A stretch of DNA of 64,000 bases from Escherichia phage saus132 (NC_047884.1), one strand, 5' to 3'. Positions 4,509 through 63,188 are shown, counted from the stretch's first letter. Notes: generated by a model not told the origin, from the sequence alone. Numbers and translations are program-made.

Positions 4509-4515
4509 CAGAAAT

Positions 4516-4592: not shown

Positions 4593-4599
4593 TTAAATT

Positions 4600-4843: not shown

Positions 4844-4879
4844 GTCAAATTTTAAAGAACTTGCTCAGTGCTGTATCAG

Positions 4880-5173: not shown

Positions 5174-5184
5174 CTTATATAACT

Positions 5185-5214
5185 ATTATAGCAGAAATCT
5201 TAAGCAAAAAGCAA
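5185..5214 (-). promoter_or_regulatory. early promoter cassette
   Basis: Minus strand -35 TTGCTT, 18 bp, -10 TATAAT. Confidence 0.5.
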
Positions 5215-5244
5215 GTACATTTTTAAAATTTCTGCTTGGAGGAG

Positions 5245-5517
5245 TTAAACTCCTGATTCTTCAGCCAGATCAAGCCCAACCAATGTGATTGCCATAATAG
5301 CCGCGCCATGTTCTTTCTCTCCTAGCTCTTTGGCTTGAGTGAGAATATTGAGGAATTGCTTTTGAAAATCTGCAACTTCTTCTGTCATGCCTGCTTCAGC
5401 AATAATTCCTTTCAGCATAAAGCGTTGTGCCGTAATTTCAGGATTAGCCATTTGTTTTCTCCAGTTATTTAGAATGTAAGCCAAACTTAGGATCATAGCG
5501 ATCGTAAGTAGTACCAT
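5245..5517 (-). CDS. hypothetical protein (90 aa)
   Basis: ORF; hydrophobic N-terminal segment. Confidence 0.45.
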   Translation of the reverse strand: MVLLTIAMILSLAYILNNWRKQMANPEITAQRFMLKGIIAEAGMTEEVADFQKQFLNILTQAKELGEKEHGAAIMAITLVGLDLAEESGV

Positions 5518-5602
5518 TAGTTGAAGCCTTGATGCTATGAAAACGACAATACATAAATTTACGCAGTGCTTTCTTAATAGCTTTCATTTTATTTCCTTAA
5601 TT

Positions 5603-5679
5603 TGGTAGGGGTGGTGGGATTCGAACCCACAAAACCTGAATTTTAAGTCCAGTACCTATGCCAATTCGATTACACCCCC
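5603..5679 (-). tRNA. tRNA with anticodon UAA (Leu-decoding) but short variable loop (type I)
   Basis: Acceptor GGGGGTG/CACCCCT, A73, anticodon arm CTGGA-CTTAAAA-TTCAG, T arm GTGGG-TTCGAAT-CCCAC, CCA encoded. Confidence 0.55.
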
Positions 5680-5687
5680 ATGTAATC

Positions 5688-6041
5688 TTAGCGAATCTCT
5701 AAACCCTGGAAATATCGAGGGAATGGAGAGCCAACTTCAAAATTGATGCCCCAGTTAAGTTCAACGAGTTCAGATTTATTAAGATCTAGGCCATTACCTT
5801 CAAAGATATAGCCGTAAACCGCAGGGAACATAGCTGCTAGATCTTCCATATCGGAATGAGCATTGTGTTCTTCACGTAACTGCTCAAACTCTTCAAAGAA
5901 CTTTTCTAGGAAGAACTCAGGTACGATGAACGTTACCACATCAGTAGAATCATCAGTACGATACACCGTAGCTTGGAACAAGCCAACACCTAAAAGGTTT
6001 ATTGCCGGAGTAGTAAAAATATCCATCTTAACCTCGCTCAA
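5688..6041 (-). CDS. hypothetical protein (117 aa)
   Basis: ORF; no recognisable motif. Confidence 0.45.
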   Translation of the reverse strand: MSEVKMDIFTTPAINLLGVGLFQATVYRTDDSTDVVTFIVPEFFLEKFFEEFEQLREEHNAHSDMEDLAAMFPAVYGYIFEGNGLDLNKSELVELNWGINFEVGSPFPRYFQGLEIR

Positions 6042-6213
6042 TGTCTAGAGAAATACCACATTCAGGATTAATACCAGAACCATTACAATATGTACAAACG
6101 TATGTATTATACCGTGTATCACCGGGTTCAGCATCGTTCCACTCACCTACTCCGAAGCATTTTGGGCAGGCACACTCTTCTAGCTCTTGCTTGAGTTCTT
6201 GAAATTTGGACAT
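6028..6213 (-). CDS. small zinc-finger protein (61 aa)
   Basis: CPKCFGVGEW and CTYCNGSG resemble DnaJ-type CxxCxGxG zinc finger repeats. Confidence 0.45.
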   Translation of the reverse strand: MSKFQELKQELEECACPKCFGVGEWNDAEPGDTRYNTYVCTYCNGSGINPECGISLDIERG

Positions 6214-6221
6214 ATAGTCTC

Positions 6222-6410
6222 CTAGTTAATTACTTTTGAGGCTTCTAAAGCATTGACGTAGTAAACGTCTTCTACTTTATACATATAGTCTACTACTTTG
6301 TCCATAGCATGTAGTTCAGATGTAGCCTTTACTAGTCTGTACCCTTGTTTAAACTCGTCCGAATGTTCTCTATCTTGTGCAAATTTAACAGAAACTATGA
6401 ATAATTCCAT
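6222..6410 (-). CDS. hypothetical protein (62 aa)
   Basis: ORF; no recognisable motif. Confidence 0.4.
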   Translation of the reverse strand: MELFIVSVKFAQDREHSDEFKQGYRLVKATSELHAMDKVVDYMYKVEDVYYVNALEASKVIN

Positions 6411-6429
6411 TAGTTGTCCTTATTTAATT

Positions 6430-6507
6430 TGGTGGCTCCCGGAGGATTCGAACCTACCTACCTTTCGCTTATGAGGCGACGGCTCATACCAAATGAGCTT
6501 GAGAACC
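6430..6507 (-). tRNA. tRNA with CAU anticodon (Met or Ile2), second copy
   Basis: Acceptor GGTTCTC/GGGAGCC, D stem GCTC/GAGC, anticodon arm GTCGC-CTCATAA-GCGAA, T loop TTCGAAT, CCA encoded. Confidence 0.6.
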
Positions 6508-6512
6508 AAATT

Positions 6513-6606
6513 TGGAGGAAGATGCCAGATTCGAACTGGCACACCGTGTCTCCACAGCTACTGGCTGTTTAGCAAACAGCTCCCTTACCTTTAGGGTTAA
6601 TCTTCC
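6513..6606 (-). tRNA. tRNA-Ser (GCU), long variable arm
   Basis: Acceptor GGAAGAT/ATCTTCC, anticodon arm GCTGT-TTGCTAA-ACAGC, long variable arm, T arm GCCAG-TTCGAAT-CTGGC, 94 nt with CCA. Confidence 0.8.
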
Positions 6607-6622
6607 AAATTTATGAATATAT

Positions 6623-6650
6623 TATATTAGAAATTTAGCTTCATGGCAAG
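6623..6650 (-). promoter_or_regulatory. promoter driving tRNA-Ser and tRNA(CAU)
   Basis: Minus strand -10 TATAAT plus conserved UTR-like sequence; -35 TTGCCA at suboptimal spacing. Confidence 0.45.
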
Positions 6651-7028
6651 AAAATTTTTCAAGTTTTCTGTATTCATTTCATCTAAATCCATGAGGGAAG
6701 TAAACCCATTTAGTTTTTTAGCAAAATTCTCACCAGCAGAATCATTATCGCCTACGGCTACTACTTTAAAAGGTTGTAATTTTAGCTGCTTTAGCAATGC
6801 TTTGCTAGGGGAAGATCCTAGCATTGCTAGTGCGGGATATCCCGCGTTGTGTAGTGCCACAGCTTTAAATACAGATTCTGCAACTAATACTAGGTCTTCA
6901 TTACCTGTAAGAGTTTCTAAACCCCATAGACATTGAGTAGAAGAATGCGTAAAATATTTAGCTTCAGAAGGACATTTTCCATGACCTTTAGCTGCACTAG
7001 GGTTATATGTTTGATATCCACGTAACAT
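6627..7028 (-). CDS. Toprim-domain protein (133 aa from first ATG); frame stays open upstream to an in-frame TAA at 7113-7115 that follows a 10-codon ATG-initiated leader
   Basis: Toprim-like Glu (LVLVAESVF) and DxD (VVAVGDNDSAGE) motifs; promoter and strong SD lie upstream of the ATG at 7143, not of the ATG at 7028. Confidence 0.5.
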   Translation of the reverse strand: MLRGYQTYNPSAAKGHGKCPSEAKYFTHSSTQCLWGLETLTGNEDLVLVAESVFKAVALHNAGYPALAMLGSSPSKALLKQLKLQPFKVVAVGDNDSAGENFAKKLNGFTSLMDLDEMNTENLKNFLAMKLNF

Positions 7029-7176
7029 GCCAGAGAAATCATACAGTGGAACTGTTAACCATCCATGTGGAGAGAGCCAACAGTGATACTTATCACTATC
7101 AAAGCCCCTAGATTAAAGATGTTGTTTTAACTCGTCAACAGTCATATATGACTCCTATCTATAATTTATAGAATAT

Positions 7177-7205
7177 ATTATATAGAAAATTTCGGCATTA
7201 AGCAA
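7177..7205 (-). promoter_or_regulatory. early promoter cassette upstream of Toprim-gene leader
   Basis: Minus strand -35 TTGCTT, 17 bp, -10 TATAAT. Confidence 0.6.
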
Positions 7206-7213
7206 GTGAAATT

Positions 7214-7510
7214 TTACTGAACACTGCACTGATACACTTGTTTGATACGTGTCACTGACTTCTTAGTTGGATTGATAGAAGAACCTTGCCACCAACGTGA
7301 TTCTGAGCTGAGAACAGCACCAGGAACAGCTTGTTCTTTTGGCAGAACAATATCAAAACATTGCTCACCCATATTATCTTTAATGTGTGACCAAATATCC
7401 AAAGTAAATCGTTCTAGCTTATTACAAACTTGAACTTGACAAAGTTCCTGTTGTGGAGCAGCAAATACAGAAGTAGATACTAGAGTCAATGCAAGTACAA
7501 TGCGTTTCAT
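7214..7510 (-). CDS. small secreted protein (98 aa) with cleavable signal peptide
   Basis: MKRIVLALTLVSTSVFAAPQQ signal-like N-terminus; start moved to ATG after SD GAGAGAGG (track start is a TTG inside the UTR). Confidence 0.5.
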   Translation of the reverse strand: MKRIVLALTLVSTSVFAAPQQELCQVQVCNKLERFTLDIWSHIKDNMGEQCFDIVLPKEQAVPGAVLSSESRWWQGSSINPTKKSVTRIKQVYQCSVQ

Positions 7511-7540
7511 ATTTGATTCCTCTCTCAAATTTATAAATAT

Positions 7541-7569
7541 ATTATACAGAAATTTTCTATATTAAGCAA
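7541..7569 (-). promoter_or_regulatory. early promoter cassette
   Basis: Minus strand -35 TTGCTT, 17 bp, -10 TATAAT, then ATATATTTATAAATTTGAGAGAGG UTR with SD. Confidence 0.65.
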
Positions 7570-7616
7570 GTGAAAATTTCTGTATAATAGCCCTCTAAGC
7601 GAGGGCTATAACTACT

Positions 7617-8309
7617 TTATTTGTTAACGCGTACAAAGTATCCTTTATAGGCTCCCATAATAGAGTTACCTAAGAATACTAGCCACATTGCTAGGATTGC
7701 ATAAGATGCACCTGTAGATTGAGCAGTTACAAGCCAAATGTATACAGTACCAATGTTAATAGCAATCCAGATCAGCCATTGTTCAGCATATTGTTTGACC
7801 ATAAGCCACATAGCAATCACACTACCAACCGCAGTAAATGCGTCAAGCATTGGGAATGGATCAGCGGTAGTAGCAAGGAAGCTGCCGTAACCTAAAGTAG
7901 CTACTGCTAGAATCCCTAGAGTCAGCAGAGCTTGGGCTTTAGTCAGAACCTTAGTTGGAACATCTGGCAGATTACTTGGCTTATTTTTATGCCATAAGTA
8001 CATTCCATAAAACTGCATAGGAACGTAGTATAGCAGGTTTAGTGCAGCGTTACCATAAAGATCTGCGTTTAAAGCTGTAATACCATATGTAAGAACACCC
8101 ACTAAGCCCCAAATATAGTTGGAAACACGTCCTTTTGCAACCAGAATAACACAAACCACATTGGTTATTGCAGTAGCCCAATCTAGAGCTGTACCATTAT
8201 AGTTTGCTAAACTAATGAAGACAACCGCTATGAACAGCCACAGATATTCCAGAGGTTTCCAGTTTTTAAAGTCATTTACGAGATAGTTAGTCATATTAAA
8301 ACTCTCCAA
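7617..8309 (-). CDS. pnuC: PnuC-like nicotinamide riboside transporter (230 aa)
   Basis: Size and multi-helix hydrophobic profile typical of PnuC; directly downstream of and overlapping the NadR-like gene. Confidence 0.65.
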   Translation of the reverse strand: MESFNMTNYLVNDFKNWKPLEYLWLFIAVVFISLANYNGTALDWATAITNVVCVILVAKGRVSNYIWGLVGVLTYGITALNADLYGNAALNLLYYVPMQFYGMYLWHKNKPSNLPDVPTKVLTKAQALLTLGILAVATLGYGSFLATTADPFPMLDAFTAVGSVIAMWLMVKQYAEQWLIWIAINIGTVYIWLVTAQSTGASYAILAMWLVFLGNSIMGAYKGYFVRVNK

Positions 8310-9351
8310 CGTTAAAGTGATGAATCAGCCAGTCTACTGCGTTTACTGCTTCGTCCATACGAACTTTGTAGTCCGGGGAGTCGATGTAAACAGTACGCCC
8401 TTCAGGGAACTGATTTGGAAATTCTTTCTTCATCTGCTCGAACAGTTCAGAAGTAATTGAACGATCGGAGTTAATACGTAAACCATCATCTACCCACTTG
8501 ACAGTAGGCGCTAGAACAATTACTAAATCGTAATGTTCTTCTTTTGCAATTGCTGTAACCACAGGGTTCTTACTATGTTCATAAAGTCTGTGGTAGAACT
8601 CAGTAATAAAAGCATTTGTATCCACAAACATGATCTTATTTGCAGTACGTTCTGCTTCAAACTCTAGCTCTTTGTGTCTGAACGCAATTTTACTATAGTC
8701 TTCGCTGGTAAGCAGATTTTCGTTACCAACTAGATCAACTTCACAATACGTTCGGCCATATTCTTCTACCCACGAAGTGTTGTATAGCTTCGCAAGGTAT
8801 TTTGTTAAAGTAGTCTTTCCTGAGCTTTCAGTCCCAATGATTACAACCTTACGCACGTAATCTTTACGAACTACGCTAGGAAGAAACTCCCAATACTTCA
8901 TAAGATCATTACGAATCATTGTAGCTGAGATTGGAACACGAGTCCGATCAGAATCTACAATATAATGACCAAACTTCGGCAGATATTTCTTATATTCTGC
9001 ATCATAGTCTAGTTCGCTAGAGAAAATGGTGATCTCAGGCAAATGTCCGTAATTTTCATTAAGGATTCTAGCATATTCCGGCCAACCATTCGGATATTCA
9101 GGAATATCATCTTCAATAGTGTACTCTACCGAAATGTGCTCAATATCCGCGTAAGTTTGTTCTAACCAACGAAGTCGATTCTTTAACTGTAATACTTCCT
9201 GATCACGTGTGTTCTGCTTATCCAACCAACGATTATCATGACTAACTACAACAATAACTCGTTCACACATAGTTGCTGCTGTGTTTATTAGGTTAATATG
9301 ACCACGCGTTAATGGTGCGAACTTACCAATTACTAGACCAGTCTTAATCAT
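8296..9351 (-). CDS. nadR: NadR-like bifunctional NMN adenylyltransferase / ribosylnicotinamide kinase
   Basis: N-terminal GKFAPLTRGH nucleotidyltransferase motif; C-terminal P-loop GTESSGKTTL; start taken at ATG after SD, not the track start inside the promoter. Confidence 0.75.
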   Translation of the reverse strand: MIKTGLVIGKFAPLTRGHINLINTAATMCERVIVVVSHDNRWLDKQNTRDQEVLQLKNRLRWLEQTYADIEHISVEYTIEDDIPEYPNGWPEYARILNENYGHLPEITIFSSELDYDAEYKKYLPKFGHYIVDSDRTRVPISATMIRNDLMKYWEFLPSVVRKDYVRKVVIIGTESSGKTTLTKYLAKLYNTSWVEEYGRTYCEVDLVGNENLLTSEDYSKIAFRHKELEFEAERTANKIMFVDTNAFITEFYHRLYEHSKNPVVTAIAKEEHYDLVIVLAPTVKWVDDGLRINSDRSITSELFEQMKKEFPNQFPEGRTVYIDSPDYKVRMDEAVNAVDWLIHHFNVGEF

Positions 9352-9381
9352 ATTTGATTCCTCTCTCAAATTTATAAATAT

Positions 9382-9410
9382 ATTATACAGAGAATTTAGC
9401 ATTCAAGCAA
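9382..9410 (-). promoter_or_regulatory. early promoter cassette for nadR-pnuC operon
   Basis: 29-nt block identical to the cassette at 7541; -35 TTGCTT, 17 bp, -10 TATAAT. Confidence 0.65.
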
Positions 9411-9562
9411 TCGAATTTTTTAACTTTTTAGTGGAAAAAATCTCAAGGCATTTAGTGGTAGCACGTTGTTGCTACAATAATAGTATATGATTCTAAAGAA
9501 TTAAAGAATTAAATACTAAAGACCTTAGTTGAATAACTTATGGGCTTTTCTTTTGCCTTAAA

Positions 9563-9601
9563 TACAGAAAAGCCCGCGCTCTCGGAGGAAACGCGGGCTT
9601 A
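9563..9601 (-). terminator. rho-independent terminator after SPFH gene
   Basis: GC-rich hairpin AAGCCCGCG...CGCGGGCTT then U-run on minus strand. Confidence 0.7.
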
Positions 9602-9623
9602 TTTCGAAGATTACGTGTAACTA

Positions 9624-10568
9624 TTACTTATTACGCATATCCATAATCATCTGGCCATCATAACCAGTACCTACAACAGTCTGAGGAACGCCACCCTGAT
9701 ATTTTTCAGCGCGTTTCATATCAACTTCCAGCTGTTTCCAGCGAATCATCTCTGGAGTGATGGTACGCTGCAGAGCGGTGTTAGCTTCAGCTTCTTTCTT
9801 AGCCGCATACAGTTTAGCATCTGCGTCACGTTCGTTAGCTACTGCCATATTTTCACGAGCAGAACGATCAGCCTCAGCTTGCTTAACTTTCTGCTGTGCT
9901 TCTTGTTCAACACGAGCTAGTTCAGCTTTTGCAGCGTTAACTTGTTCTTCACGAACTTTGGTGTTTTGTACCTGTTCCATGATTACCGGTGGCAGAGTAA
10001 TATCCTGAAGGAATACTTGCTTAACGGTGTAGCCATAAGGACGCGCATACTCTTCTACTTCTTGCTGAATAGCGGTTTGCAGTTGAGCCTGAATCTTAGC
10101 GTCGAACAGATCTTGTGCTTTTGGTACAGACTTACCAAACTCACGAATCGTAGACAGCATCTTCTCTTCAACGTACTTGTTCAGAGCTTGATCCTGAGTA
10201 CCTGCGTTAACACGGTTCATAGGAGCTTTAGCACCATCAAACTGCAACATAACGGTAATGTCAACTGTAGACTTAAACTTATCCTGGCTAGGAACCTGAA
10301 GTTTATCCAGTTTCATAGAAATATCTTTCGTACTAAAAGTATCAAAAGAGGCGAATGGGTTGACAATATGGAACCCCGGCAATACAGGATTAGGACTAAC
10401 TTTACCCAGGAAAGTCTGAGTTTTAACCGTACCGTCCTGAACAACTGTATAGGAATTGAGAGCCAGAATAAGAGCGCCAAGACCAACTACAGCACCAACA
10501 CCCCAACGTTTAATAGTACGAATTACTTTTTGATCGGAAGTCAGTTCTTTAGTGTTTTTAGTAAACAT
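9624..10568 (-). CDS. SPFH/band-7 (HflK/C, prohibitin-like) membrane protein
   Basis: N-terminal TM helix, central SPFH-like region, C-terminal Ala/Glu/Gln-rich coiled coil; rho-independent terminator downstream. Confidence 0.6.
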   Translation of the reverse strand: MFTKNTKELTSDQKVIRTIKRWGVGAVVGLGALILALNSYTVVQDGTVKTQTFLGKVSPNPVLPGFHIVNPFASFDTFSTKDISMKLDKLQVPSQDKFKSTVDITVMLQFDGAKAPMNRVNAGTQDQALNKYVEEKMLSTIREFGKSVPKAQDLFDAKIQAQLQTAIQQEVEEYARPYGYTVKQVFLQDITLPPVIMEQVQNTKVREEQVNAAKAELARVEQEAQQKVKQAEADRSARENMAVANERDADAKLYAAKKEAEANTALQRTITPEMIRWKQLEVDMKRAEKYQGGVPQTVVGTGYDGQMIMDMRNK

Positions 10569-10579
10569 ATATTTCCTTA

Positions 10580-10780
10580 TTATTTAGAAGAGTTAGCTAC
10601 TACAGTTACTTTAGTTGCAGAAATAAACAGGCTAGCATCCACAGCAAATTCAGGAGCTTTGATATCTCCGTTATGAAATATGACTATACCGGAGACTACT
10701 TCAAATGCTAGCGCTGTAACATCGGTGGTATTTACTTGTGAATGTTCACCTACTACTTTTACTATATATCGTGTTTTCAC
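10580..10780 (-). CDS. hypothetical protein (66 aa)
   Basis: Short ORF between SPFH gene and tRNA-Arg. Confidence 0.35.
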   Translation of the reverse strand: MKTRYIVKVVGEHSQVNTTDVTALAFEVVSGIVIFHNGDIKAPEFAVDASLFISATKVTVVANSSK

Positions 10781-10806
10781 TTTATTTTCCTAGCAGTTAA
10801 TAAAAT

Positions 10807-10881
10807 TGGCCGAGGTGACAGGATTCGAACCTGCATAAAGGAATTTAGAAGACTCCTGCCTATCCCTTAGACTACACCCCG
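10807..10881 (-). tRNA. tRNA-Arg (UCU)
   Basis: Acceptor CGGGGTG/CACCTCG, anticodon arm GGAGT-CTTCTAA-ATTCC, T arm GCAGG-TTCGAAT-CCTGT, CCA encoded. Confidence 0.7.
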
Positions 10882-53583: not shown

Positions 53584-54026
53584 TTAAAATTAAACTAACT
53601 CATCCAGATTGCATGCCAAAGATTGGTTCTAATGATGCCGCAGGTATGGATCTGCGTGCATTCTTTGGTACTAACCTTGCAGCAGATTTACGTGCTATTG
53701 CACCAGGCAAATCCCTTATGATTGACACCGGTGTCGCGGTGGAAATTCCGCGAGGTTGGTTTGGTCTGGTAGTTCCTCGCAGCTCTTTAGGTAAGCGTAA
53801 ACTGATGATCGCAAACACCGCAGGAGTGATCGACTCAGACTACCGTGGTACTATTAAGATGAACCTTTATAACTATGGTTCTGAAATGCAAACTCTGGAG
53901 AATTTCGAGAGACTTTGTCAGCTAGTAGTACTACCACACTACTCAACTCATCATTTTGAAATCGTTGACGAACTAGAGGAGACTGATCGTGGAGAAGGCG
54001 GCTTTGGAAGCTCAGGAAGTAAGTAA
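53580..54026 (+). CDS. dut: dUTPase
   Basis: dUTPase motifs AGMDL, PRSSL, GVIDSDYRG, RGEGGFGSSG. Confidence 0.9.
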   Translation: MIKIKLTHPDCMPKIGSNDAAGMDLRAFFGTNLAADLRAIAPGKSLMIDTGVAVEIPRGWFGLVVPRSSLGKRKLMIANTAGVIDSDYRGTIKMNLYNYGSEMQTLENFERLCQLVVLPHYSTHHFEIVDELEETDRGEGGFGSSGSK

Positions 54027-54255
54027 TTTTGTTGGTCCTACTATGGTAGGAGTAGGCGTAGATCAATCTAACTTTTACAAGATTGACGTTAAATACGTTG
54101 AACCTGAGAAAATAGTACTGAGAGTTGGTGCATCTGGTGTAGTAGAACAGTGGGATGAAGAAGGATTTATCGCACTTTGCACTGAATCTCAAGATCCTAT
54201 GCTTAAAGCCATGCTAGCAGTATATAACTTAGGTAGTATTGCAGGTAGTAGATAA
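53989..54255 (+). CDS. hypothetical protein (88 aa)
   Basis: ORF overlapping dut 3' end, before bidirectional terminator. Confidence 0.35.
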   Translation: MEKAALEAQEVSNFVGPTMVGVGVDQSNFYKIDVKYVEPEKIVLRVGASGVVEQWDEEGFIALCTESQDPMLKAMLAVYNLGSIAGSR

Positions 54256-54257
54256 TA

Positions 54258-54295
54258 AGAAACCCCAGTGGACAATCCACTGGGGTTTCTTTATA
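54258..54295. terminator. bidirectional terminator between convergent early (plus) and tail (minus) transcription units
   Basis: 12-bp perfect stem AAACCCCAGTGG/CCACTGGGGTTT with A/T tracts on both sides. Confidence 0.7.
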
Positions 54296-54314
54296 TTACG
54301 TATATATATATATA

Positions 54315-55640
54315 TTATGAGTTATCTGGCGTAATGAGCTCGCTCACAAGTTTTTTCAGTTCGTCTAGCTCTTGTTCTAAAGTAGCAACTTTTAGTTTCA
54401 ATTCGTCTGTTTCCTTCTGTTGCTTATCATTATCCTCAATTATTTCTTTAATTGCGTTGGTGAGTAACGCCGTCACACCTGCATAGTTAATTGAAAGATA
54501 ATCCGTGTCTGCTACTTTGTAGACAGCTTCTGGTAAAACAGTTACAACGTCTTGAGCAATTAAACCAGCTTCTTCCGTGTAAAAAGAATGTTCGTTTTCC
54601 TCTAAGCTATTACGTTTGAAGTAGGTGTATCCCTGTAAGACTTTAACTTTATCTTTTGCGGATACTATTTCTTTTAACTGAGCTTTAAGGCGTATATCAG
54701 ATGTGCTTTGCCATGCGACGGCCGTAGCTTGTCCCGCGCTATTGAAACCATAAGATGTATTTCCAACTAGAAGACGCTGGTAGGGGTTCCCATCCCCATA
54801 AATAACAACATCAGCGCCAGATGCAAAAGTATCACCCCATCTAACTGATTTCCAAATATTTACACCGCCGTCCCTAGACGGGATTTCCACTAACAGACCA
54901 GCCGCCCGATCTCGCCATTCACCATGACCGCCAGCTTGCACTTGACCCGCTATAAGCGCACTACCGGCCCCAGCACGAACACCGTATACATACATACCAC
55001 GAGAGTCATTAGGCGCTGAACTGGAGATAGCGCGTAGGGTGGAAAATCCATTCCCATTAAAAGTACAGAGATTAAGTGAATCGGTATAAACATCTAAAAC
55101 ACCATCACTACGCTGTGCAAATCCAGTGTCACTATCACCAATAGCAATAGATCGAGCACCTAAACCCTGTGCGTCACCCGGAGTACCAATTGACATACGA
55201 TCGGTTACTGCTAATGTTGCTGTACGGGATTTGCCAGAAACACCCAAAGCGTTAATAGATAAAAGCCCTGAATTATTGAACGTACAATATGATTCTATAT
55301 TATTTGATAGATTCTTAGTGTGAATTACGGTTTGGGTTTCACCAGTGGCACCATTAATCGCATTATAAAAACGCGATTGGGAACGTGCCGAGCCTGACGT
55401 AGAATATAATGTACTATGATAGATCCCACCATTAGTAGATTCAATATCATAACGAGTAAGAGCATTAACACCGCTAAAGGTAACAGTTTGACCTTCGCCT
55501 AATCGAAGATTAGTACGAGCACCGTTTACATCTGTTGCACCTGTACCGCCAGCACCAATAGGAAGAGCTGATGTAGCGTTATCGCTATTTCTAGCAACTC
55601 GCCAATCGCCATTATTAGCAATCCGGAGTTCATATGTGGC
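54315..55640 (-). pseudogene. ltf: L-shaped tail fibre distal segment with C-terminal S74 chaperone domain; in frame with upstream segment, no own ATG/SD
   Basis: 442 sense codons directly after the TAA in the same frame; Gly-rich fibre sequence; C-terminal TSDIRLK...coiled coil matches the autoproteolytic chaperone-domain signature. Confidence 0.65.
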
Positions 55641-57242
55641 TTATGGGTTAGTAAATGCGTTATAATCACCTAAAGTAGTTCCAGTTGTTTGTCTAACAGA
55701 ATCAACGCCGAGATTCCCTCGAGCTGAAACTTTATCTGTAAGGTCCGCGAGGTTCTGGTCCTTTTTCAAAGACGCTTGCATAACCTGTGCTGCAGATGCA
55801 GCCGCTGTCTCCGCTCTATCTGCTGCACTGGTGGCGTTAGTAGCTTTCTCACTTGCCGTTGTAGCGCTACCAGCGGCCTCTGTAGCCTTTTGCGTAGCTG
55901 TGGTAGCCTTTTGTGTAGCTAAAGCCGCAGCATCTTCTGCTGCTTCTCTCAGCGGTGTCATTGCGTTCAGTGATTCAGTTTTAGCAGTATTAATAGCGTT
56001 AACACCAGCGACCTTGGCTGTGTTAACACCACCAATCGCGCTAGATTTAGCACTTCCTATTGCCGTTAACGCTGCGTCTTTTGACTGGGTAATGCTGGTT
56101 GTTGCATCCGTTTTAGCGGTATTAATTTCTCCAACAGCACCGTCTTTAATAGTTTGCGTGTCGCTCTTTAACTGCTCAACGTCGGACTTAAGATTCTGTA
56201 CTGTGATCACAGCTTGCATAGCAGTACTCGCGCTACCTGATGCAGCTTGTTGAGCTAACTTAGCAGCGTCTTCACTAGCTTTTGAGTTAATTTCGCTAGT
56301 CTTTGCATTAGTTTCTGAATTTTTTGCTGCTAATGCTGATGTAGAGGCTTGTGTAGCGAATGTTTCTGCTTCATCTCTGAATCCTTTGGATTCAGAGGCA
56401 GAGGCAGCGGATAGGGCAGCATTAGTCTCACTATTTTTTGCTGCTGCTGCATATGCTGCTGCATTAGTCTCACTAGTTTTTGCCTTAGTCTCACTAGTTT
56501 TTGCATTAGTCTCACTAGTTTTTGCATTAGTCTCACTAGTTTTTGCCTTAGTCTCACTAGTTTTTGCATTAGTCTCACTAGTTTTTGCTGCTATTTGTGA
56601 TGTAGCAGCAGCATTTTTACTTGCTAATGCATTAGTTTCGCTAGTAGCAGCATTCATAGCCGAAGTAGCTGCCGCTAATTCGGAAGCTTTAGCGTTAGTC
56701 TCTGAAACTTCAGCGTTAGTCTCAGAAGTTTTTGCTGCTGTTTGTGAAGCTGCTGCCGCATTTTTACTTGCTAATGCATTAGTTTCAGAAGTCTTGGCAT
56801 TAGTCTCAGAAGTTTTTGCGTTAGTTTCAGAAGTTTTTGCTGCGTTTTTGCTTGCTAAAGCTGCTATTTCAGAAGCCTTAGCACTAGTTTCAGAAGTCTT
56901 GGCATTAGTTTCTGAAGTTTTAGCATTTGTAGCAGAAGTTGCTGCGGCTGTTTGAGAGGCGGCAGCTGCATTTTTACTAGTTAATGCATTAGTCTCGGAA
57001 GTCTTAGCGTTTGTCTCAGAAGTTTTTGCATTGATTTCTGATGTTTTTGCAGCATTCTCAGAATCTTTTGCTGCCGCAGCAGAAGCAGCAGAGGCCTCAA
57101 CAGCCGCTGTTAGTTGACCAGCAGTAATAGAACTAATAGAATTACCTAAAACTACTGTATATTTAGGATACTTACTAGCAGTAGTTGTAGTGTCATCTAT
57201 GTTCAGAGTCTGCTGTACAATAATTTTAGTTTTAAGTGCCAT
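55641..57242 (-). CDS. ltf: L-shaped tail fibre, N-terminal 533-codon segment ending at in-frame TAA (55641-55643)
   Basis: Fibrous Ala/Thr/Ser/Asn-rich heptad repeats; first gene after the pb4-like gene; frame continues past the TAA. Confidence 0.7.
   Translation of the reverse strand: MALKTKIIVQQTLNIDDTTTTASKYPKYTVVLGNSISSITAGQLTAAVEASAASAAAAKDSENAAKTSEINAKTSETNAKTSETNALTSKNAAAASQTAAATSATNAKTSETNAKTSETSAKASEIAALASKNAAKTSETNAKTSETNAKTSETNALASKNAAAASQTAAKTSETNAEVSETNAKASELAAATSAMNAATSETNALASKNAAATSQIAAKTSETNAKTSETKAKTSETNAKTSETNAKTSETKAKTSETNAAAYAAAAKNSETNAALSAASASESKGFRDEAETFATQASTSALAAKNSETNAKTSEINSKASEDAAKLAQQAASGSASTAMQAVITVQNLKSDVEQLKSDTQTIKDGAVGEINTAKTDATTSITQSKDAALTAIGSAKSSAIGGVNTAKVAGVNAINTAKTESLNAMTPLREAAEDAAALATQKATTATQKATEAAGSATTASEKATNATSAADRAETAAASAAQVMQASLKKDQNLADLTDKVSARGNLGVDSVRQTTGTTLGDYNAFTNP
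56419..57080. repeat. tandem 21-bp repeat array inside ltf (6 near-perfect copies 56461-56586, degenerate copies flanking), encoding heptad repeats of type TSETNAK
   Basis: Direct reading: GCATTAGTCTCACTAGTTTTT / GCCTTAGTCTCACTAGTTTTT repeated head-to-tail. Confidence 0.85.
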
Positions 57243-57664
57243 TATTTAGTTACTCCATCGCTGATGTATACTTTACCTTCCATAATACGGAAAGAATTGA
57301 CTTCAGAGCCAATCACATCACGAGTCATTAGGATATCATAATAACCAGCAAAACGTTGTCTTGGGTTATACTTATCACGTTCTTTAGATGCTTTTTCACC
57401 AATATTAGTAGTGTCTACAATGGAAAGACTAATTGCAGCAGCACCTTGAGCAGCATCAATAACATGAGTTTTAAAGTTAGCTAGAACCTCGGCGTTCTCA
57501 TCTAGACTAGATTTAATAGTTCCTCGGAGTGAATATCCGGTTAAGTTAATAGGAACTTCTGTTGGTGGATATACACTGTCGTCAACATCCATAAACTGCA
57601 TGATAAGACCATAAGGCACTTTCTCATCAACAATAATATCAATAACTCGGTTTTCTGTACTCAT
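57242..57664 (-). CDS. small tail protein (140 aa), possibly collar/fibre-attachment
   Basis: Position between pb4-like and ltf genes; 1-nt ATGA overlap with ltf. Confidence 0.4.
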
Positions 57665-57669
57665 TATAA

Positions 57670-59727
57670 TTACCTTATATGGATATACCCACTATTTAGG
57701 TCTATCTTCATCTTGTAGTATGCTTCAGGGTTTCCTGATAACGCAGCATTTCTATCGTATATTATATTAACACCTATTTGTGATAAGAAGGCATTTCCTG
57801 CCACAATCTTATCAGCAGTTACAGTTCCATTAACAATCATGTTGCCATGAAGAACCATTGCAGGGTTAATCCATCCACCCCCGTTCCATTGGCGGGTAAA
57901 TGCTGTTTGTGGAGCATTACTGTTAAATTGTGTTAAGACATCGTATTTAACTGGAGGTTTTCCAAAGTTATTTTGGAAGAATGCATTAGCCTGTCCATCA
58001 TCCCAACCACCTAATCCAGGAATACCCATGGAGTACATCCCAGGACCACGCTGTCCATCACGCCCTATAGTACCTTCAGTACCACTCCACTGAACCACAT
58101 CAGACCAGCTAGTACCTTCAAGAAGTTTGTTAGTAACTGGATCAAGTGTACCAGTAGTAGTATAGATATTTTGTGTCATATCTGTACGATTAGGTGGAGT
58201 TTTTGACCAACCAGGAGGTGGATAATCTTGTTCTAGCGGTTTGGTGGGTAGAGATGTTGCTAACTTATAAACAAATACTGTTTGTTTACCCTGTAATCCA
58301 GTACCAATATCTACGTCACCATTTGGTGTTCCAATTACTACACCACTAGAAATACGTAGGGTAGTACCATCATAACGTATCCATTGTGTAGCATTACCAA
58401 TATCTAATTTAGCTTTGGCAGAGGTATTATCCATGCCCATCCAAATACCAGAGTTATTATCTCCCCAAGATTTACCTTGAGTGTAAATTGCTGGATTATC
58501 TTTACCAGACAAGTTAGTCATAATAAAGTTTGCAGCATTAATATCTCTAGTGATTACTTTACCATCAACGTTAACAACACGGTTTATAGGGTCGAAAGAA
58601 ATAGGTGCTTTACCTTCTCTATCTAGCAGACCAATGTTAATAGCACCAGTAGCTGCATCAATTAGGAATGTTTGTCTCCATATTTCCCCATCTTTCATAC
58701 TACCCTTAATAAAGGCATAGTTAACATCAATACCCGTCTCATTGACAAAACTATTATCTAGAGGAGTATCTTCATTCAGAATAAATGTTACAGGAGCTGA
58801 TTCTGTTATATCTTGTTTGTTTGGTCCCCAGGCAATTGATGAAACCTTAAAGGTATGTTCAACTTTCCATGGGAATGATATAATCGTTGCAGCTCTAGCA
58901 GCACCCACGTTTATCTTTTGAGCTTTAGCCCATCCGGTTTTAGCGTATTCCTCGGAGTTTATATAAGTAACCAAGAACTCACGAACATTAGCACCAGCAC
59001 CGCGTTCCCAATCCCACTCAATTCTAACATCATATCGTTCTTTACCATCAGCAATTCGTGCAGCTTTAAAAACAATATCGATAGGTGCAGTAGGAGGAAC
59101 AAAATTATAAGCTACAGTTAGAATACTAGGGGACTCATAGTAACCAGAAGAATCAACTGTAACACCATCAGGCATAGTTACTTGACCAGATATTCTGATC
59201 TTATAATCTCCGATAGGAACTCCACCAAATTTAATAGTAGAACCTAAAGCCCCAATGTAATACTTAGTCCAAGGACTATCTTCCGTGGCTGTACTTTTTA
59301 ACTCAATAGTACAGTAACTTGCTTCACCAGTAGTTTCCACAACAACTATCGGTGCGCCCACCCCAACATCCACTGGTTCTGACTCAGACCTTGCTGTAAC
59401 AATTATTGGCTTCTCTTTTGTTTTAAAGTTAGTTTCATTAGAGAGGTTAATACCAATTTTTGCATTTAAAAGTTCTGAGTCAATAATTGAGTCATAAAAA
59501 GCTCCCTGAACCTGATAGGTAGTTGAGGGAGTTAAATTATTGATCATAACAAAGAAAGTGTCGATCCCAGTGAAATCTCTTCTATCCACTTCTTCGCCAA
59601 GTTTAAGCCAGAATGATCTACCGATAACATCGTAGTCGGTATAGATAGAATGCTGGATATACGCCATCGTATACCCAGTCATAATACTATTTAAGACCAT
59701 CTTGGCTGGTGCATTATTAGAAATCAT
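57670..59727 (-). CDS. tail baseplate protein, T5 pb4-like (685 aa)
   Basis: Size and gene order relative to T5 (pb4 about 688 aa). Confidence 0.55.
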
Positions 59728-62577
59728 TTAAATAGATGCCCAATCCACAGATTGCTCGCCATTATCACCTTCTGCTCTTATACGGAAGCGTAACTTCCTA
59801 TTAATACCTAGAGCATCCTCGTTATGAAGAGCATAGTCTGCCTTATTGTATATCAGTAGATAATCGTAGACATACTGATCTTCAATTCGTACACTTCTTA
59901 ATAAACGATCTAGGTTATCGTAGATTTCGAGAGTGTAGAAGATTCCATCAATGATATCTTCTTCTGGAATTCTATCCCAGGCCAACTTAACGTCTGGTCC
60001 TACAAACTCCGATGCATCTCCTGAAGCTGTATTAGTAACCCTGAAATTACTAACGACGCTTAAGTTTTTAGCAGAGTTAAGTTCTACCGATAGTGTTACA
60101 GGAGAACTTCGTCTACCATTAATATCTACAGCTCTAATCTCAAAGACTGCTAAACCAGCAGGTTCTCCAATAATTTCTTGGATCATTCGTAGATTTGGAT
60201 TAGTTTCTAGTTGCTGTACGATATAAGGATCAGCATGTCCAGAATGAACGATGGAGTAATAAACAACGTTATTAGTTAAGCTAGGAAGCCAAGATAGCTC
60301 ACCATTCTTACCAATAGATCCTACTTGTCCACCCGGTGTTGGTGTGTACATAAAGTCTCTAGGGGGCAGTACGTTATTACTAACATCAGGGATATCGTTA
60401 CCACTATTATCAACCTGCTCGGAGTTAATGAATACATCCTCACCATACTCTTGCAGTGTAATATTAATCTTACCTTCTCTAGAGTTTTCAACTTCATCAA
60501 CTAGGAAGTATTTCTTATCCCAACCATAACGACCATATGTAAAAGCAACCGGATCGTTAGGCTCAATACCTATGAAATGATATGGTAATGAGAATGTGAG
60601 AGTTCGTGAGTAACGAGATTTTTTCAGTTCTCTATCTGCAAAGCTACGTGCAGTATAATAGTTAGTGATGTTTGCAAAAGAAAGCTGAAGTTTTTTATCT
60701 AATCCTTTATCTTGTTCTTTAAATACAGAATTAAAGAATGTGATAGAGTTAGTTTTCCAACTTAATGCAGGATCTAATATAGAGGCTTGTACTGAGTTGA
60801 ATTTATTTCTGCCAGTAGTATCTGACAATTCCAGATCACCATAGGTATCTAAGAAGTCAATCTCCAGTGGAGTATTCGAGAACTTCTCAACAGTTATTCT
60901 ATACTGACCAGATAAGTTGTTGATAGCACCCCCATAAGACTCTATTAATCCCTGCACGTTTTTAAATACTGACTCAGAGGTATCGAGAATAGTGTTCATT
61001 TGAACTATTTGTCTATTCTCTCCTACAGCATCAGTCCATCCAACGTATCTCCAGTAGGGTTGCCAAGAAACCTGATAGGATTCATCAATTATATCCAGAA
61101 TAGCTGCTTCTTGAATAAGTTGCTGGAGAGGGAACTGATCAATAGTGATATTAGCACCATAGCGATCAGAGGTTAGGTAGTCCAGAGTTTGCCAGATACC
61201 ATTTAAGCTAGTCTTATCAGCAGTTACTCTACCATCTGAATGATAGATCTTAATCTTCTTACCTTGAACTTCAGCGCTAACTTCTGGAATTTCTGTTCTG
61301 TTTTCATTAATAGTAAAGCGAACAATAGCGTAAGCAGTATCTAACAGTTTATAACGAGAGTCCCAGTATTCTGGTCCATTCTCATTCATGTTCTGTAGGT
61401 AGAAACCTTTCTCTTTTGCAATGTTAACTAGAACATCCGCAGCAGATTGGTCTGCTTTACCATGATAAGTCCAGATACGTATATCGCCATTACCATCGTT
61501 ATACCTATATTCCTGTCCATGAACAGAGGGTTCAGAGCTTGATTGACCAGAAGCAATACGTTGCATGGTATCTCCAGCTACTTTCTTAGTACCAAAGCAA
61601 GTACGAGACTTACTATCGTTAGGATCAATACAGATCATTGGTACATCACCAAAGTAGAAATCTAGAAATCCATCAATCTCACCCTCACAGAAGGCGTATA
61701 CTATATATACGATATTAGGGTTATGCAGCTCAGTATCCGCAAATACGGGGATTCCAGGGATTTTCTGAGTTCCATACACTACTGGAAGGAACTTAGCCGC
61801 TAAGTTAAAATCGATGTCAACTTCCTTAGTCACAGTCTCATAGTATTTCTTTAGGCTATAGCTTCTAGAAAGACCAAATAACTTTTTCTTAGACTGTAAC
61901 TTGTAACGCTCTTCCTGAACCTGATATTTAGCAAGAATAGAAATACTCTTGTTAGCGTGGAAGAATCCATAGTCCTCTTGATATTCAGGTCGCTTAGCAC
62001 CATTAGATGGAACTAATTGGCCAGCAACAATCTCAAGTCCCCTATGGTCAGCATCGTCTGTGAAACGTCCGTTTACTCTATCAAAGTCGTAAAACTGGTT
62101 CGAACAGTTCCATGTGATAGTGGATGTGCTAATTCCAGAAGTACCAATGTTATCCTTAATACCACCACCAGTGATTTTACCACGGAAGTAAAGTAAAGGA
62201 CCATTAGTGTCTGGATCTACAGGAAGAATGTTACCTTCTTCATCAATAACCGCTTGATGGATTGAGATGGATCTATCTAGGAATGATACACCATTTTGGA
62301 CTAGTTTTAATACTTCATCCTCAGCAGTACCTGTGATAGTAAAAGAAAGACTACCAATGGAAAGATCTCTATTTTGTTTATGTGTTGTTATAGACTTAAC
62401 CTTACCGGATGTATAAAGAATCCCATTATATCTTACATCTCTAAAATAATCTGTAAGATATATGTAGGCAGAACTTGATCCAGTAGAGCTTGGCAATTCA
62501 AGAGTAATAAGGCATGCAGTTTTTATTTTATTATTAGTTCTTAAATACTCTCTTGCACTGTCAAGAATTTTCTTCAT
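59728..62577 (-). CDS. baseplate hub protein, T5 pb3-like (949 aa)
   Basis: Length identical to T5 pb3 as recalled; gene order. Confidence 0.6.
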   Translation of the reverse strand: MKKILDSAREYLRTNNKIKTACLITLELPSSTGSSSAYIYLTDYFRDVRYNGILYTSGKVKSITTHKQNRDLSIGSLSFTITGTAEDEVLKLVQNGVSFLDRSISIHQAVIDEEGNILPVDPDTNGPLLYFRGKITGGGIKDNIGTSGISTSTITWNCSNQFYDFDRVNGRFTDDADHRGLEIVAGQLVPSNGAKRPEYQEDYGFFHANKSISILAKYQVQEERYKLQSKKKLFGLSRSYSLKKYYETVTKEVDIDFNLAAKFLPVVYGTQKIPGIPVFADTELHNPNIVYIVYAFCEGEIDGFLDFYFGDVPMICIDPNDSKSRTCFGTKKVAGDTMQRIASGQSSSEPSVHGQEYRYNDGNGDIRIWTYHGKADQSAADVLVNIAKEKGFYLQNMNENGPEYWDSRYKLLDTAYAIVRFTINENRTEIPEVSAEVQGKKIKIYHSDGRVTADKTSLNGIWQTLDYLTSDRYGANITIDQFPLQQLIQEAAILDIIDESYQVSWQPYWRYVGWTDAVGENRQIVQMNTILDTSESVFKNVQGLIESYGGAINNLSGQYRITVEKFSNTPLEIDFLDTYGDLELSDTTGRNKFNSVQASILDPALSWKTNSITFFNSVFKEQDKGLDKKLQLSFANITNYYTARSFADRELKKSRYSRTLTFSLPYHFIGIEPNDPVAFTYGRYGWDKKYFLVDEVENSREGKINITLQEYGEDVFINSEQVDNSGNDIPDVSNNVLPPRDFMYTPTPGGQVGSIGKNGELSWLPSLTNNVVYYSIVHSGHADPYIVQQLETNPNLRMIQEIIGEPAGLAVFEIRAVDINGRRSSPVTLSVELNSAKNLSVVSNFRVTNTASGDASEFVGPDVKLAWDRIPEEDIIDGIFYTLEIYDNLDRLLRSVRIEDQYVYDYLLIYNKADYALHNEDALGINRKLRFRIRAEGDNGEQSVDWASI

Positions 62578-63188
62578 AGACTTTCCCTCAAGGAAAGTGA
62601 AATACCAGTATATGTACCATTGCTATTTAACGTAGAGCCGAAGCTATCTCCATTCATTAATTTAGTTCTAAATAGAATACCATTAAATACCGGTTTCTCA
62701 CTACCCGTAGTAGTAATGAATAGATCAGGATAAACACTTATATTCCAAGTATTTCCTGCTGTGTTGATAGAAGTGATTTTATACACTTTTGGATGATTGG
62801 ACAACTTAAATAAATCGCCTGGTTTAGGCAGTCCACGAAGTGTACCTTTAGTGTACATAATAACTGTTGAACCTTTTTGTCCAGCAGGAATATTTACAGC
62901 ACTAGTATCACCACGAACTCGGAAAGCCTCATATTGTGGTAATAACACATCAATATAGCTACCTGTTCTTTTATAATCTAGGATGAATGAGTCTAATTTA
63001 GCAAATTCATCTGGGAATAATTCTGGATAAGAGATATTAATACCCCAATATTGAGCAGACACCTTAACCTCCCTAACTTTACCATTGGGTAATTCATCAC
63101 GAATCATAGGGTCATTGTCTACTAAGTTAACGCTTTCAAAACCTAACCCTGATAGCTCTGGGTTCGTGTATGGGTCTGGTAGTCTCAT
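62574..63188 (-). CDS. distal tail protein, T5 pb9-like (204 aa)
   Basis: Length identical to T5 pb9 as recalled; follows tape measure gene. Confidence 0.55.
   Translation of the reverse strand: MRLPDPYTNPELSGLGFESVNLVDNDPMIRDELPNGKVREVKVSAQYWGINISYPELFPDEFAKLDSFILDYKRTGSYIDVLLPQYEAFRVRGDTSAVNIPAGQKGSTVIMYTKGTLRGLPKPGDLFKLSNHPKVYKITSINTAGNTWNISVYPDLFITTTGSEKPVFNGILFRTKLMNGDSFGSTLNSNGTYTGISLSLRESL

What the first reader, a model, noticed from the sequence alone, without database searches (positions are those of the whole stretch)
56419..57080. Perfect 21-bp tandem repeats inside the tail-fibre gene
Seen in sequence: six head-to-tail 21-bp units (56461-56586) with degenerate copies on both sides, in frame, encoding heptad repeats (TSETNAK). 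Tandem repeats in receptor-binding fibres are prone to slippage and could vary fibre length.
Basis: partly seen in the sequence, partly recalled or inferred. Interest (0 to 1): 0.45.

Follow-up and report, generated by a model that had tools for sequence, protein, structure and literature searches.

The report
Heptad repeats in tail-fibre shaft
The 21-base tandem repeats are real and encode heptads of the three-stranded helical shaft of a T5-like phage's side tail fibre; related phages carry 1, 3, 5 or 6 copies, an ordinary and already understood feature of such fibres.

Summary
The window is T5-like phage poul149 (MF431738, 100% identity). The array lies on the minus strand in ltf, the L-shaped tail-fibre gene (pb1/LtfA homologue).

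- **Observation:** there are six 21-bp units at 56460-56585. They are not all perfect: units 2 and 5 differ by one base (Asn to Lys), so the array is an exact 63-bp block repeated twice.
- **Context:** the units are the youngest part of 34 unbroken heptads (aa 46-283), with Ala at 33/34 'a' positions and Ser at 32/34 'd' positions. This run starts where cryo-EM of DT57C LtfA shows a three-helix coiled coil leaving the collar.
- **Relatives:** the homologous array has 6, 5, 3 or 1 units. All shaft-length differences are multiples of 7 residues. Phage ZBSTP12 differs from BD13 by 1 mismatch plus one clean 84-bp deletion. The five near-identical sister genomes show no copy-number difference.

However, the repeats sit in the proximal shaft, not the receptor-binding tip. 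In this phage ltf also carries a published premature TAA at codon 534.

Verdict: an ordinary member of a known kind, of low interest.

The parts
54315..57242 (-). Complete ltf reading frame (L-shaped tail fibre, pb1/LtfA homologue): 976 codon positions including the final stop, open in one frame except for a single internal TAA
   Evidence: The frame scan shows only the stops at 55643 and 54317; translation. It is an intact 975-aa CDS in sister phages chee130_1, cott162 and saus176N. phrog_5481 'tail fiber protein' matches both halves.
57123..57242 (-). N-terminal collar-binding anchor (aa 1-40)
   Evidence: Almost identical to residues 1-60 of DT57C LtfA, PDB 8HQZ chain d (E 1e-34 overall). 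In DT57C these residues add beta-strands to the LtfC collar, and the helix starts at T40 (PMC10713586). AF2 predicts no helix before residue 41.
56394..57107 (-). 34 heptads in one unbroken register (aa 46-283): Ala/Ser-core coiled-coil shaft
   Evidence: Heptad layout. Ala at 33/34 and Ser at 32/34 of two positions spaced 3 and 4 apart. AF2 predicts helix at 41-116 and 121-275. TRF also finds higher-order periods of 84 and 105 bp.
56460..56585 (-). The reported array: six 21-bp units, equal to an exact 63-bp block repeated twice (56460-56522, 56523-56585). In codon register it spans 56457-56582 (aa 221-262): TSETNAK TSETKAK TSETNAK TSETNAK TSETKAK TSETNAA
   Evidence: All six units use identical codons (ACT AGT GAG ACT AAT/AAG GCA AAA/GCA), whereas older heptads average 13.7/21 identical bases and mostly use TCN codons for Ser.
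56247..56330 (-). Further heptads of the same motif after the SKGFRD break, in a shifted register (aa 305-332: AAKNSETNAKTSEINSKASEDAAK...)
   Evidence: AF2 predicts a break at 276-286 and helix again at 287-401.
55641..55643 (-). Premature ochre stop (TAA) at codon 534; CAA (Gln) in four sister phages
   Evidence: Base-by-base comparison. Published as a premature stop in the tail-fibre gene of saus132 and poul149 (PMC5816814 Table 3).
54519..54701 (-). Peptidase_S74 intramolecular chaperone domain at the C-terminal end of the frame, downstream of the stop
   Evidence: Pfam PF13884, E 4e-10, residues 183-243 of the 310-aa downstream ORF.
57242..57664 (-). LtfC collar protein gene immediately upstream (attachment site of the fibre)
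   Evidence: Pfam PF23926 LtfC, E 7.7e-14; phrog_34807 'collar tail protein for L-shaped tail fibre attachment'.

Best explanation
[quoted passage not shown] Each heptad is A-K-T-S-E-T-N (positions a to g), with small Ala ('a') and Ser ('d') residues in the core. The shaft begins at the collar-binding N-terminus and runs unbroken for about 34 heptads. The six near-identical units are the most recently amplified or homogenised part of this older repeat field. The N-K-N | N-K-N pattern and identical synonymous codons point to duplication of a 63-bp three-unit block, or an equivalent unequal exchange or gene conversion. Because neighbouring units are identical DNA, replication slippage or unequal recombination can add or remove whole heptads. 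Each heptad changes shaft length by about 1 nm (7 x ~0.15 nm rise per residue, textbook coiled-coil geometry) and keeps the coiled-coil register. Only such in-register changes are seen among relatives. Shown here: the repeat anatomy, the reading frame, the a/d conservation, copy-number differences among relatives and the multiple-of-7 rule. Inferred: the trimeric state (from DT57C cryo-EM and from biophysics on homologous PCoil domains), the slippage or recombination mechanism, and any effect on adsorption. In poul149 itself the fibre is truncated after residue 533, so the array is probably functionally irrelevant in this isolate.
For: - Identity of the phage and gene.
- Unbroken register over 34 heptads, with Ala 33/34 and Ser 32/34 at positions spaced 3 and 4 apart.
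- AF2 predicts helix from residue 41 to 275. [quoted passage not shown]
- Homologous Ala/Ser heptad 'PCoil' regions of Stf-like prophage fibres were shown to be trimeric alpha-helical coiled coils by CD and SEC-MALLS, with lengths differing by multiples of seven (PMC3368898). The Ur-lambda Stf proximal coiled coil spans residues 102-393 (PMC12617516).
- Copy number at the homologous site is 6 (poul149, GRNsp8, S114, CitS1, metagenomic P0001), 5 (PMBT31, 1Sgal2PP), 3 (bobsandoy, vaffelhjerte, SE20, rutana, BD13, EPS7, ende and three IMG/VR contigs) or 1 (ZBSTP12).
- The distance from the anchor to the SKGFRDEAE landmark is 159, 243, 250 or 271 aa, always 5 mod 7.
- BD13 and ZBSTP12 differ by 1 mismatch plus one 84-bp deletion bounded by repeat homology.
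- Units in poul149 are DNA-identical, while the six units of S114, CitS1 and GRNsp8 differ at synonymous sites. The array is 2.4-2.7 times more divergent from these relatives than the rest of the first 1035 nt (p 0.03-0.001).
Against: - There is no copy-number difference among the five sequenced sister genomes, and all five lineages sharing this shaft module have exactly six units. Change is therefore not fast, and length may be constrained.
- The excess divergence in the array is modest, and the region downstream of it is also divergent.
- The trimeric coiled coil is not demonstrated for this protein. The AF2 model is a monomer with mean pLDDT 58.7, below 50 for most of residues 234-316, which covers the C-terminal half of the array (aa 221-262).
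- The genome comes from 2x150-bp reads assembled with SPAdes, so a longer true array could in principle have been collapsed.
Confidence: 0.85

Rival explanations
1. A rapidly mutating 'contingency' repeat. The array slips at high frequency within a phage population, creating a standing mix of fibre lengths that helps host adaptation.
For: The units are identical over 20-21 bases and arranged head to tail. Copy number differs among relatives. A lab-selected copy gain of a different 19-aa tandem motif is documented in DT571/2 LtfA (PMC4728585).
Against: The five sister genomes from different food samples have identical arrays, although they differ by point mutations elsewhere in ltf. Five diverged lineages all keep six units. 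The unit length is a multiple of three, so slippage cannot switch expression on and off. The array is in the shaft, not the receptor-binding tip.
Confidence: 0.1
2. A DNA- or RNA-level element, such as protein-binding iterons, a promoter or terminator, or a structured RNA, that merely overlaps the coding sequence.
For: Regular 21-bp spacing is about two helical turns of DNA, as seen in some iteron arrays (general knowledge). One terminator-like hairpin on the + strand abuts the array at 56585-56611.
Against: The motif is conserved as protein, not as DNA. Older copies and the units of relatives differ mainly at third codon positions while keeping xSExNAx. Promoter-like and terminator-like sites are at chance level (7 vs 3.9±2.0 and 3 vs 2.1±1.4), and none lies inside the array. 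There is no Rfam match in 54000-58000. The same heptads occur in fibres of unrelated phages such as lambda Stf and EHEC prophages.
Confidence: 0.02
3. An assembly artefact. The number or uniformity of units is produced by short-read assembly of a repeat rather than being the true sequence.
For: The reads were 2x150 bp, assembled with SPAdes. The array is 126 bp, close to read length.
Against: With an exact period of 63 bp and a total of 126 bp, no 77-mer is repeated inside the array, so k=77 resolves it (my reasoning). Five sister assemblies agree. Independently sequenced relatives with more diverged, easily assembled units also have six.
Confidence: 0.04

Closest known systems
LtfA of phage DT57C / pb1 (Ltf) of phage T5: L-shaped lateral tail fibre, proximal three-helix coiled coil (PDB 8HQZ; PMC10713586)
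   Same: The first ~60 residues are nearly identical. The gene order is the same, after pb4 and the LtfC collar gene. The helix starts at residue 40/41. SExNAK-type heptads follow the anchor. A C-terminal Peptidase_S74 chaperone is present in the frame.
   Different: The shaft here is a long, very regular TSETNAK field with a six-unit near-identical array. DT57C's shaft is more degenerate (alignment), and it carries a second fibre protein, LtfB. Here the gene is interrupted by TAA at codon 534. The distal 1.3 kb has no DNA relative outside the chee130_1 group.
PCoil domain of Stf-like prophage tail-fibre/collagen-like proteins of EHEC (PMC3368898) and the proximal coiled coil of Ur-lambda Stf (PMC12617516)
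   Same: Both show Ala/Ser-rich low-complexity heptads (Ala-x-x-Ala/Ser-x-x-Ser) between an N-terminal attachment domain and distal domains. PCoil was shown experimentally to be trimeric and alpha-helical. Lengths among paralogues differ by multiples of seven, the same rule found here.
   Different: The N-terminal attachment domain differs (PfN/StfN versus the T5-type LtfC-binding anchor). There is no collagen segment here. Pfam gives no hit for the 533-aa N-terminal product.
Tandem 19-aa motif (VDSALADKADIATTYTKME) of DT57C/DT571-2 LtfA with a lab-selected extra copy (PMC4728585)
   Same: It is a tandem repeat inside a T5-like ltf gene whose copy number changed between closely related phages.
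   Different: The motif, period (57 bp) and position (aa 478-542, beyond the helical shaft) all differ. That change was seen after laboratory selection, whereas here only natural relatives were compared.
Simple-sequence contingency loci (phase-variable repeats) of bacteria and phages
   Same: Head-to-tail identical short units are liable to slipped-strand mispairing.
   Different: The unit is a multiple of three, so there is no frame switching. No variation is seen among sister isolates. The effect would be a graded change in length, not an on/off switch.

Membership tests
T5-type L-shaped tail fibre (pb1 / LtfA) | N-terminal anchor homologous to the LtfC-binding N-terminus of LtfA | tested here: met
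   phmmer against PDB: 8hqz_d 'L-shaped tail fiber assembly', E 1e-34, residues 1-60 almost identical.
T5-type L-shaped tail fibre (pb1 / LtfA) | Gene located directly downstream of the collar gene (LtfC/p132) and the straight-fibre gene pb4 in the late tail module | tested here: met
   Pfam LtfC (PF23926) at 57242-57664, the four PB4 domains at 57670-59727 and pb9 domains at 62574-63188. The window is 100% identical to the T5-like phage poul149 genome.
T5-type L-shaped tail fibre (pb1 / LtfA) | C-terminal intramolecular chaperone (Peptidase_S74) on the same polypeptide | tested here: not met
   The domain is present in the same frame (PF13884, E 4e-10), but in this phage it is separated from the N-terminal 533 aa by TAA at 55641-55643. 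The feature is met in the sister phages with CAA. This window therefore holds a nonsense allele of a family member.
T5-type L-shaped tail fibre (pb1 / LtfA) | Assembles as three trimeric fibres on the tail-tip collar and binds O-antigen | not testable with these tools
   Needs EM and adsorption assays. The source paper reports no host-range difference for the stop-codon mutants, with data not shown (PMC5816814).
[quoted passage not shown] | Seven-residue periodicity with conserved a and d positions, unbroken over the domain | tested here: met
   34 consecutive heptads in one register; Ala 33/34 at 'a' and Ser 32/34 at 'd'.
[quoted passage not shown] | Alpha-helical secondary structure | tested here: inconclusive
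   The AF2 monomer model is helical at 41-116 and 121-275. pLDDT is 60-79 up to about residue 200, 55-59 at 201-230 and mostly below 50 beyond that, so most of the array (aa 221-262) is at low confidence. Mean pLDDT is 58.7. CD evidence exists only for homologous PCoil.
[quoted passage not shown] | Trimeric oligomeric state | not testable with these tools
   Inferred from DT57C cryo-EM and SEC-MALLS of PfN-PCoil. Only single-chain prediction was available.
[quoted passage not shown] | Length variants among homologues differ by whole heptads | tested here: met
   Anchor-to-landmark distances are 159, 243, 250 and 271 aa, all 5 mod 7, in 17 Epseptimavirus-type Ltf proteins. The 84-bp deletion in ZBSTP12 is a further example.
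Hypermutable contingency repeat | Copy number differs among very close isolates or within a population | tested here: not met
   The array is identical in poul149, chee130_1, chee158, cott162 and saus176N. Within-population heterogeneity is not testable without reads.
Hypermutable contingency repeat | Copy change alters reading frame or expression | tested here: not met
   The unit is 21 bp, or 7 codons; every observed variant stays in frame.

The most novel reading that the evidence does not exclude
The array may be under concerted evolution with selection on shaft length. Five diverged lineages keep exactly six units (anchor-to-landmark 250 aa) while the DNA content of the units turns over. 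poul149 appears to have lost diverged units and re-duplicated a three-unit block. The only amino-acid variation, N/K/S at the 'g' position next to the core, may tune inter-helix salt bridges with Glu at 'e'. If so, fibre reach would be a selected and quantised trait, set by heptad number and matched to the particular distal receptor-binding module or to O-antigen or capsule depth.
Probability: 0.12. Interest if true: 0.35.

Novelty: new member of a known kind. Interest (0 to 1): 0.15.

Why it matters
The practical value is limited. The result explains why short tandem repeats appear in lateral tail-fibre genes of T5-like phages: they are the DNA footprint of a coiled-coil shaft whose length changes in whole heptads. 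It also offers a clean natural series (1, 3, 5 and 6 units) that could be used to test whether shaft length affects adsorption to O-antigen-bearing hosts. That is relevant to engineering phage fibres. For annotation, the '533-aa tail fibre protein' of poul149 is a nonsense-truncated allele of a 975-aa gene, and repeat counts from short-read assemblies deserve checking.

Tried and rejected
- Pfam gives no family for the 533-aa N-terminal product. PHROGs only say 'tail fiber protein'.
- Rfam gives no match in 54000-58000.
- The promoter and terminator scan is at chance level, with nothing inside the array. The DNA/RNA-element reading was therefore dropped.
- The PDB hits to Klebsiella depolymerase Depo32 (7VYV/7VZ3) looked like a solved example of SExNAK heptads. 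In the paper, however, that helical-bundle domain (up to residue 185) is invisible in the map, so it gives no structural support.
- PDB hits to the RNA polymerase II RPB1 C-terminal domain are low-complexity heptad noise with 0 significant stretches.
- The AF2 monomer model has low confidence (mean pLDDT 58.7, pTM 0.27). It was used only for secondary structure, and no fold search was run because a single long helix gives meaningless matches.
- The IMG/VR scan for two adjacent identical units returned only three contigs, all with three units. It yielded no closer relatives of the six-unit array.
- The search for homologous proteins was saturated by low-complexity words (8000 candidates scored) and did not return the phage's own protein. 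It was used only as a source of Ltf homologues.
- A suppressor tRNA that could read the TAA was looked for. None of the 18 tRNAs in the window has an anticodon complementary to a stop codon. The rest of the genome was not examined.

Full report
**What the window is.** Megablast of 55641-57242 hits Bacteriophage T5-like poul149 (MF431738.1) at 100% identity over 100% of the query. The genus is Epseptimavirus, and window coordinate = record coordinate - 32000. Four sister phages from other food samples match at 99.9%. The genes around the finding form the T5 tail-tip module, all on the minus strand:
- pb9 distal tail protein, 62574-63188
- a pb3-like hub, 59728-62577
- pb4 straight fibre, 57670-59727 (four PB4 Pfam domains)
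- the LtfC collar protein, 57242-57664 (PF23926)
- the gene holding the repeats, which starts at 57242

**Checking the observation.** Tandem Repeats Finder reports 56460-56588, period 21, 6.1 copies, 96% matches, score 244. The consensus 21-mer occurs at 56460, 56481, 56502, 56523, 56544 and 56565. The second and fifth copies carry one mismatch. With up to 3 mismatches allowed there are 8 matches, against 0 in 100 dinucleotide-preserving shuffles.

The exact repeat is a 63-bp block of three units present twice. On the minus strand, in the frame that starts at 57242, the units read TSETNAK TSETKAK TSETNAK TSETNAK TSETKAK TSETNAA (aa 221-262).

The 'degenerate copies on both sides' are part of a much larger field. 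There are 34 heptads in one unbroken register from aa 46 to aa 283 (window 56394-57107). A few more follow a short break at SKGFRD. Higher-order periods of 84 and 105 bp point to older block duplications.

**What the repeats encode.** Across the 34 heptads, one position is Ala in 33 and another is Ser in 32. These two positions are spaced 3 and 4 residues apart, which is the a/d signature of a coiled coil, here with a small-residue core. The heptad is A(a) K(b) T(c) S(d) E(e) T(f) N(g). The only residue that varies inside the six-unit array (N/K, and S in relatives) is the g position.

The first 60 residues are almost identical to LtfA of phage DT57C (PDB 8HQZ chain d; E 1e-34 for the whole match). 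In that cryo-EM structure the N-terminus adds beta-strands to the LtfC collar. A long helix starting at T40 then forms a three-helix coiled coil that leaves the tail tip radially (PMC10713586).

An AlphaFold2 monomer model of the 533-aa product is helical at 41-116, 121-275, 287-401 and 404-510. Its confidence is only moderate to low (mean pLDDT 58.7), as expected for one chain of a trimeric rod.

[quoted passage not shown] Its length differs among paralogues by multiples of seven residues (PMC3368898). The Ur-lambda Stf proximal coiled coil spans residues 102-393 (PMC12617516).

So the repeats are the coding footprint of the proximal shaft of the lateral tail fibre, not of its receptor-binding tip.

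**Protein-level versus DNA-level conservation.** Fourteen canonical heptads outside the array average 13.7 identical bases out of 21. They vary mostly at third codon positions and use mainly TCN for Ser. The six array units are identical except for AAT/AAG and the last codon, and all use AGT for Ser. The old field is thus held together by selection on the protein, and the six units are a recent DNA-level amplification or homogenisation. Promoter-like and terminator-like sites are at chance level with none inside the array, and Rfam finds nothing.

I fetched ltf from eleven other Epseptimavirus phages and added homologues from the protein search. The homologous array lies just N-terminal of the conserved landmark A(A/S)YAAAAK. 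Its unit count varies as follows:

| Units | Phages |
|---|---|
| 6 | poul149, GRNsp8, S114, CitS1, metagenomic protein P0001 |
| 5 | PMBT31, 1Sgal2PP |
| 3 | bobsandoy, vaffelhjerte, SE20, rutana, BD13, EPS7, ende, three IMG/VR contigs |
| 1 | ZBSTP12 |

The distance from the N-terminal SISSITA motif to the SKGFRDEAE landmark is 159, 243, 250 or 271 residues in these proteins. It is always 5 mod 7, so every length difference is a whole number of heptads.

The cleanest event is ZBSTP12 versus BD13. The first 1100 nt of ltf differ by one mismatch plus a single 84-bp (four-heptad) deletion, whose ends lie in the repeated A(T/C)TAGTGA(A/G)ACT sequence.

Repeat counts are therefore not identical across relatives, and gain or loss occurs in register.

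**Limits on the 'slippage-prone' reading.**
- The five sister genomes have identical arrays.
- All five lineages that share this shaft module have exactly six units, although their units differ at synonymous sites and in the N/K/S pattern.
- poul149's array is 2.4-2.7 times more divergent from these relatives than the rest of the first 1035 nt (Fisher p 0.03 to 0.001). The region downstream is also divergent, so this is only modest evidence for faster turnover.
- The picture fits occasional unequal exchange or gene conversion over evolutionary time, not a hypermutable switch.
- Within-population heterogeneity cannot be tested here.
- The genome was assembled from 2x150-bp reads with SPAdes. 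A 2 x 63-bp array is resolvable at k=77, and relatives support six units. A long read would still settle it.

**State of the gene in this phage.** The ltf frame is open from 57242 to 54315 except for one TAA at 55641-55643, codon 534. All four sister genomes examined have CAA (Gln) there. chee158 has an independent Q767 to TAA change, and cott162 has A765T. Otherwise the 3.8 kb compared are identical.

These stops are published (PMC5816814, Table 3), which also shows that saus132 shares poul149's stop. The phages were isolated and propagated on E. coli K-12 strains C600 and MG1655, and the authors saw no host-range effect, with data not shown. Loss of ltf function during passage on C600 has a precedent in DT530(1) (PMC4728585).

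The predicted poul149 product keeps the anchor and essentially the whole helical shaft. It lacks the distal part and the Peptidase_S74 chaperone domain (54519-54701). Whatever heptad number does for fibre reach, it probably has no consequence in this isolate.

**Mechanism, with confidence.**
- Shown: the anatomy, the frame, the a/d pattern, copy-number differences and the multiple-of-seven rule.
- Inferred from homologues: a parallel trimeric coiled coil.
- Inferred from the N-K-N | N-K-N pattern and identical codons: a recent 63-bp block duplication or conversion.
- Inferred from coiled-coil geometry (about 0.15 nm per residue): roughly 1 nm per heptad, 6 nm for the array and 35 nm for residues 41-275.

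I put about 0.85 on this account. The rivals are a hypermutable contingency repeat (0.1), an assembly artefact (0.04) and a DNA/RNA element (0.02).

**Novelty and interest.** The kind is known: Ala/Ser heptad coiled-coil shafts in side tail fibres, with lengths varying in heptad steps. GenBank records of relatives even annotate repeat_region features inside ltf. The specific array and its 1/3/5/6 series are not described in the source paper's main text, as far as I could see. This is a new member of a known kind, of low interest (0.15).

Noticed in passing
window 55641-55643 (minus strand, codon 534 of ltf): A premature ochre stop (TAA) where four sister phages have CAA (Gln). It truncates the 975-aa lateral tail fibre to 533 aa, so GenBank annotates two 'tail fibers protein' CDSs. 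It is already published (Sváb et al. 2018, Table 3) and shared with saus132.
   Followed up: yes
window 54944 and 54950 (codons 767 and 765 of ltf), compared with L003 (chee158) and L004 (cott162): chee158 has an independent Q767->TAA change and cott162 has A765T. By the source paper's Table 3, 3 of 11 polymorphic positions in the chee130_1 group fall in ltf, which is 2.4% of the genome. By my own rough binomial estimate p is about 0.002. This suggests selection on, or relaxation of, the fibre during isolation and propagation on K-12.
   Followed up: partly
window 54315-55730 (distal third of ltf): There is no megablast match in 50,697 phage records outside the five chee130_1-group genomes, apart from the last ~64 bp. 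The homology boundaries with GRNsp8 (~55731) and S114 (~56202) show a mosaic gene. The distal receptor-binding module is unique at the DNA level.
   Followed up: partly
L016 (BD13) vs L013 (ZBSTP12), first 1100 nt of ltf: The two differ by one mismatch plus a single clean 84-bp (four-heptad) in-register deletion bounded by repeat homology. This is a recent natural copy-number change.
   Followed up: yes
L011 (PMBT31) vs L009 (bobsandoy), heptads upstream of the array: The shaft length is the same (271 aa anchor-to-landmark). PMBT31 has two canonical TSETNAK units where bobsandoy has ISETTAI ESSAAAK. This looks like homogenisation (gene conversion) rather than a length change.
   Followed up: no
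L006 (GRNsp8) 237-3112: The ltf homologue of Salmonella phage GRNsp8 is annotated as frameshifted (an indel near record position 30155), another apparently damaged ltf allele in a sequenced isolate.
   Followed up: no
window 56386-56955, plus strand: A 189-aa ORF (TTG start) lies antisense to the repeat field. It is most simply a by-product of the Ala/Ser/Thr-rich codon composition, not a gene.
   Followed up: no
window 76-10881, minus strand: A cluster of 18 tRNA genes, typical of T5-like phages. None has an anticodon complementary to a stop codon, so none could read through the ltf TAA.
   Followed up: partly
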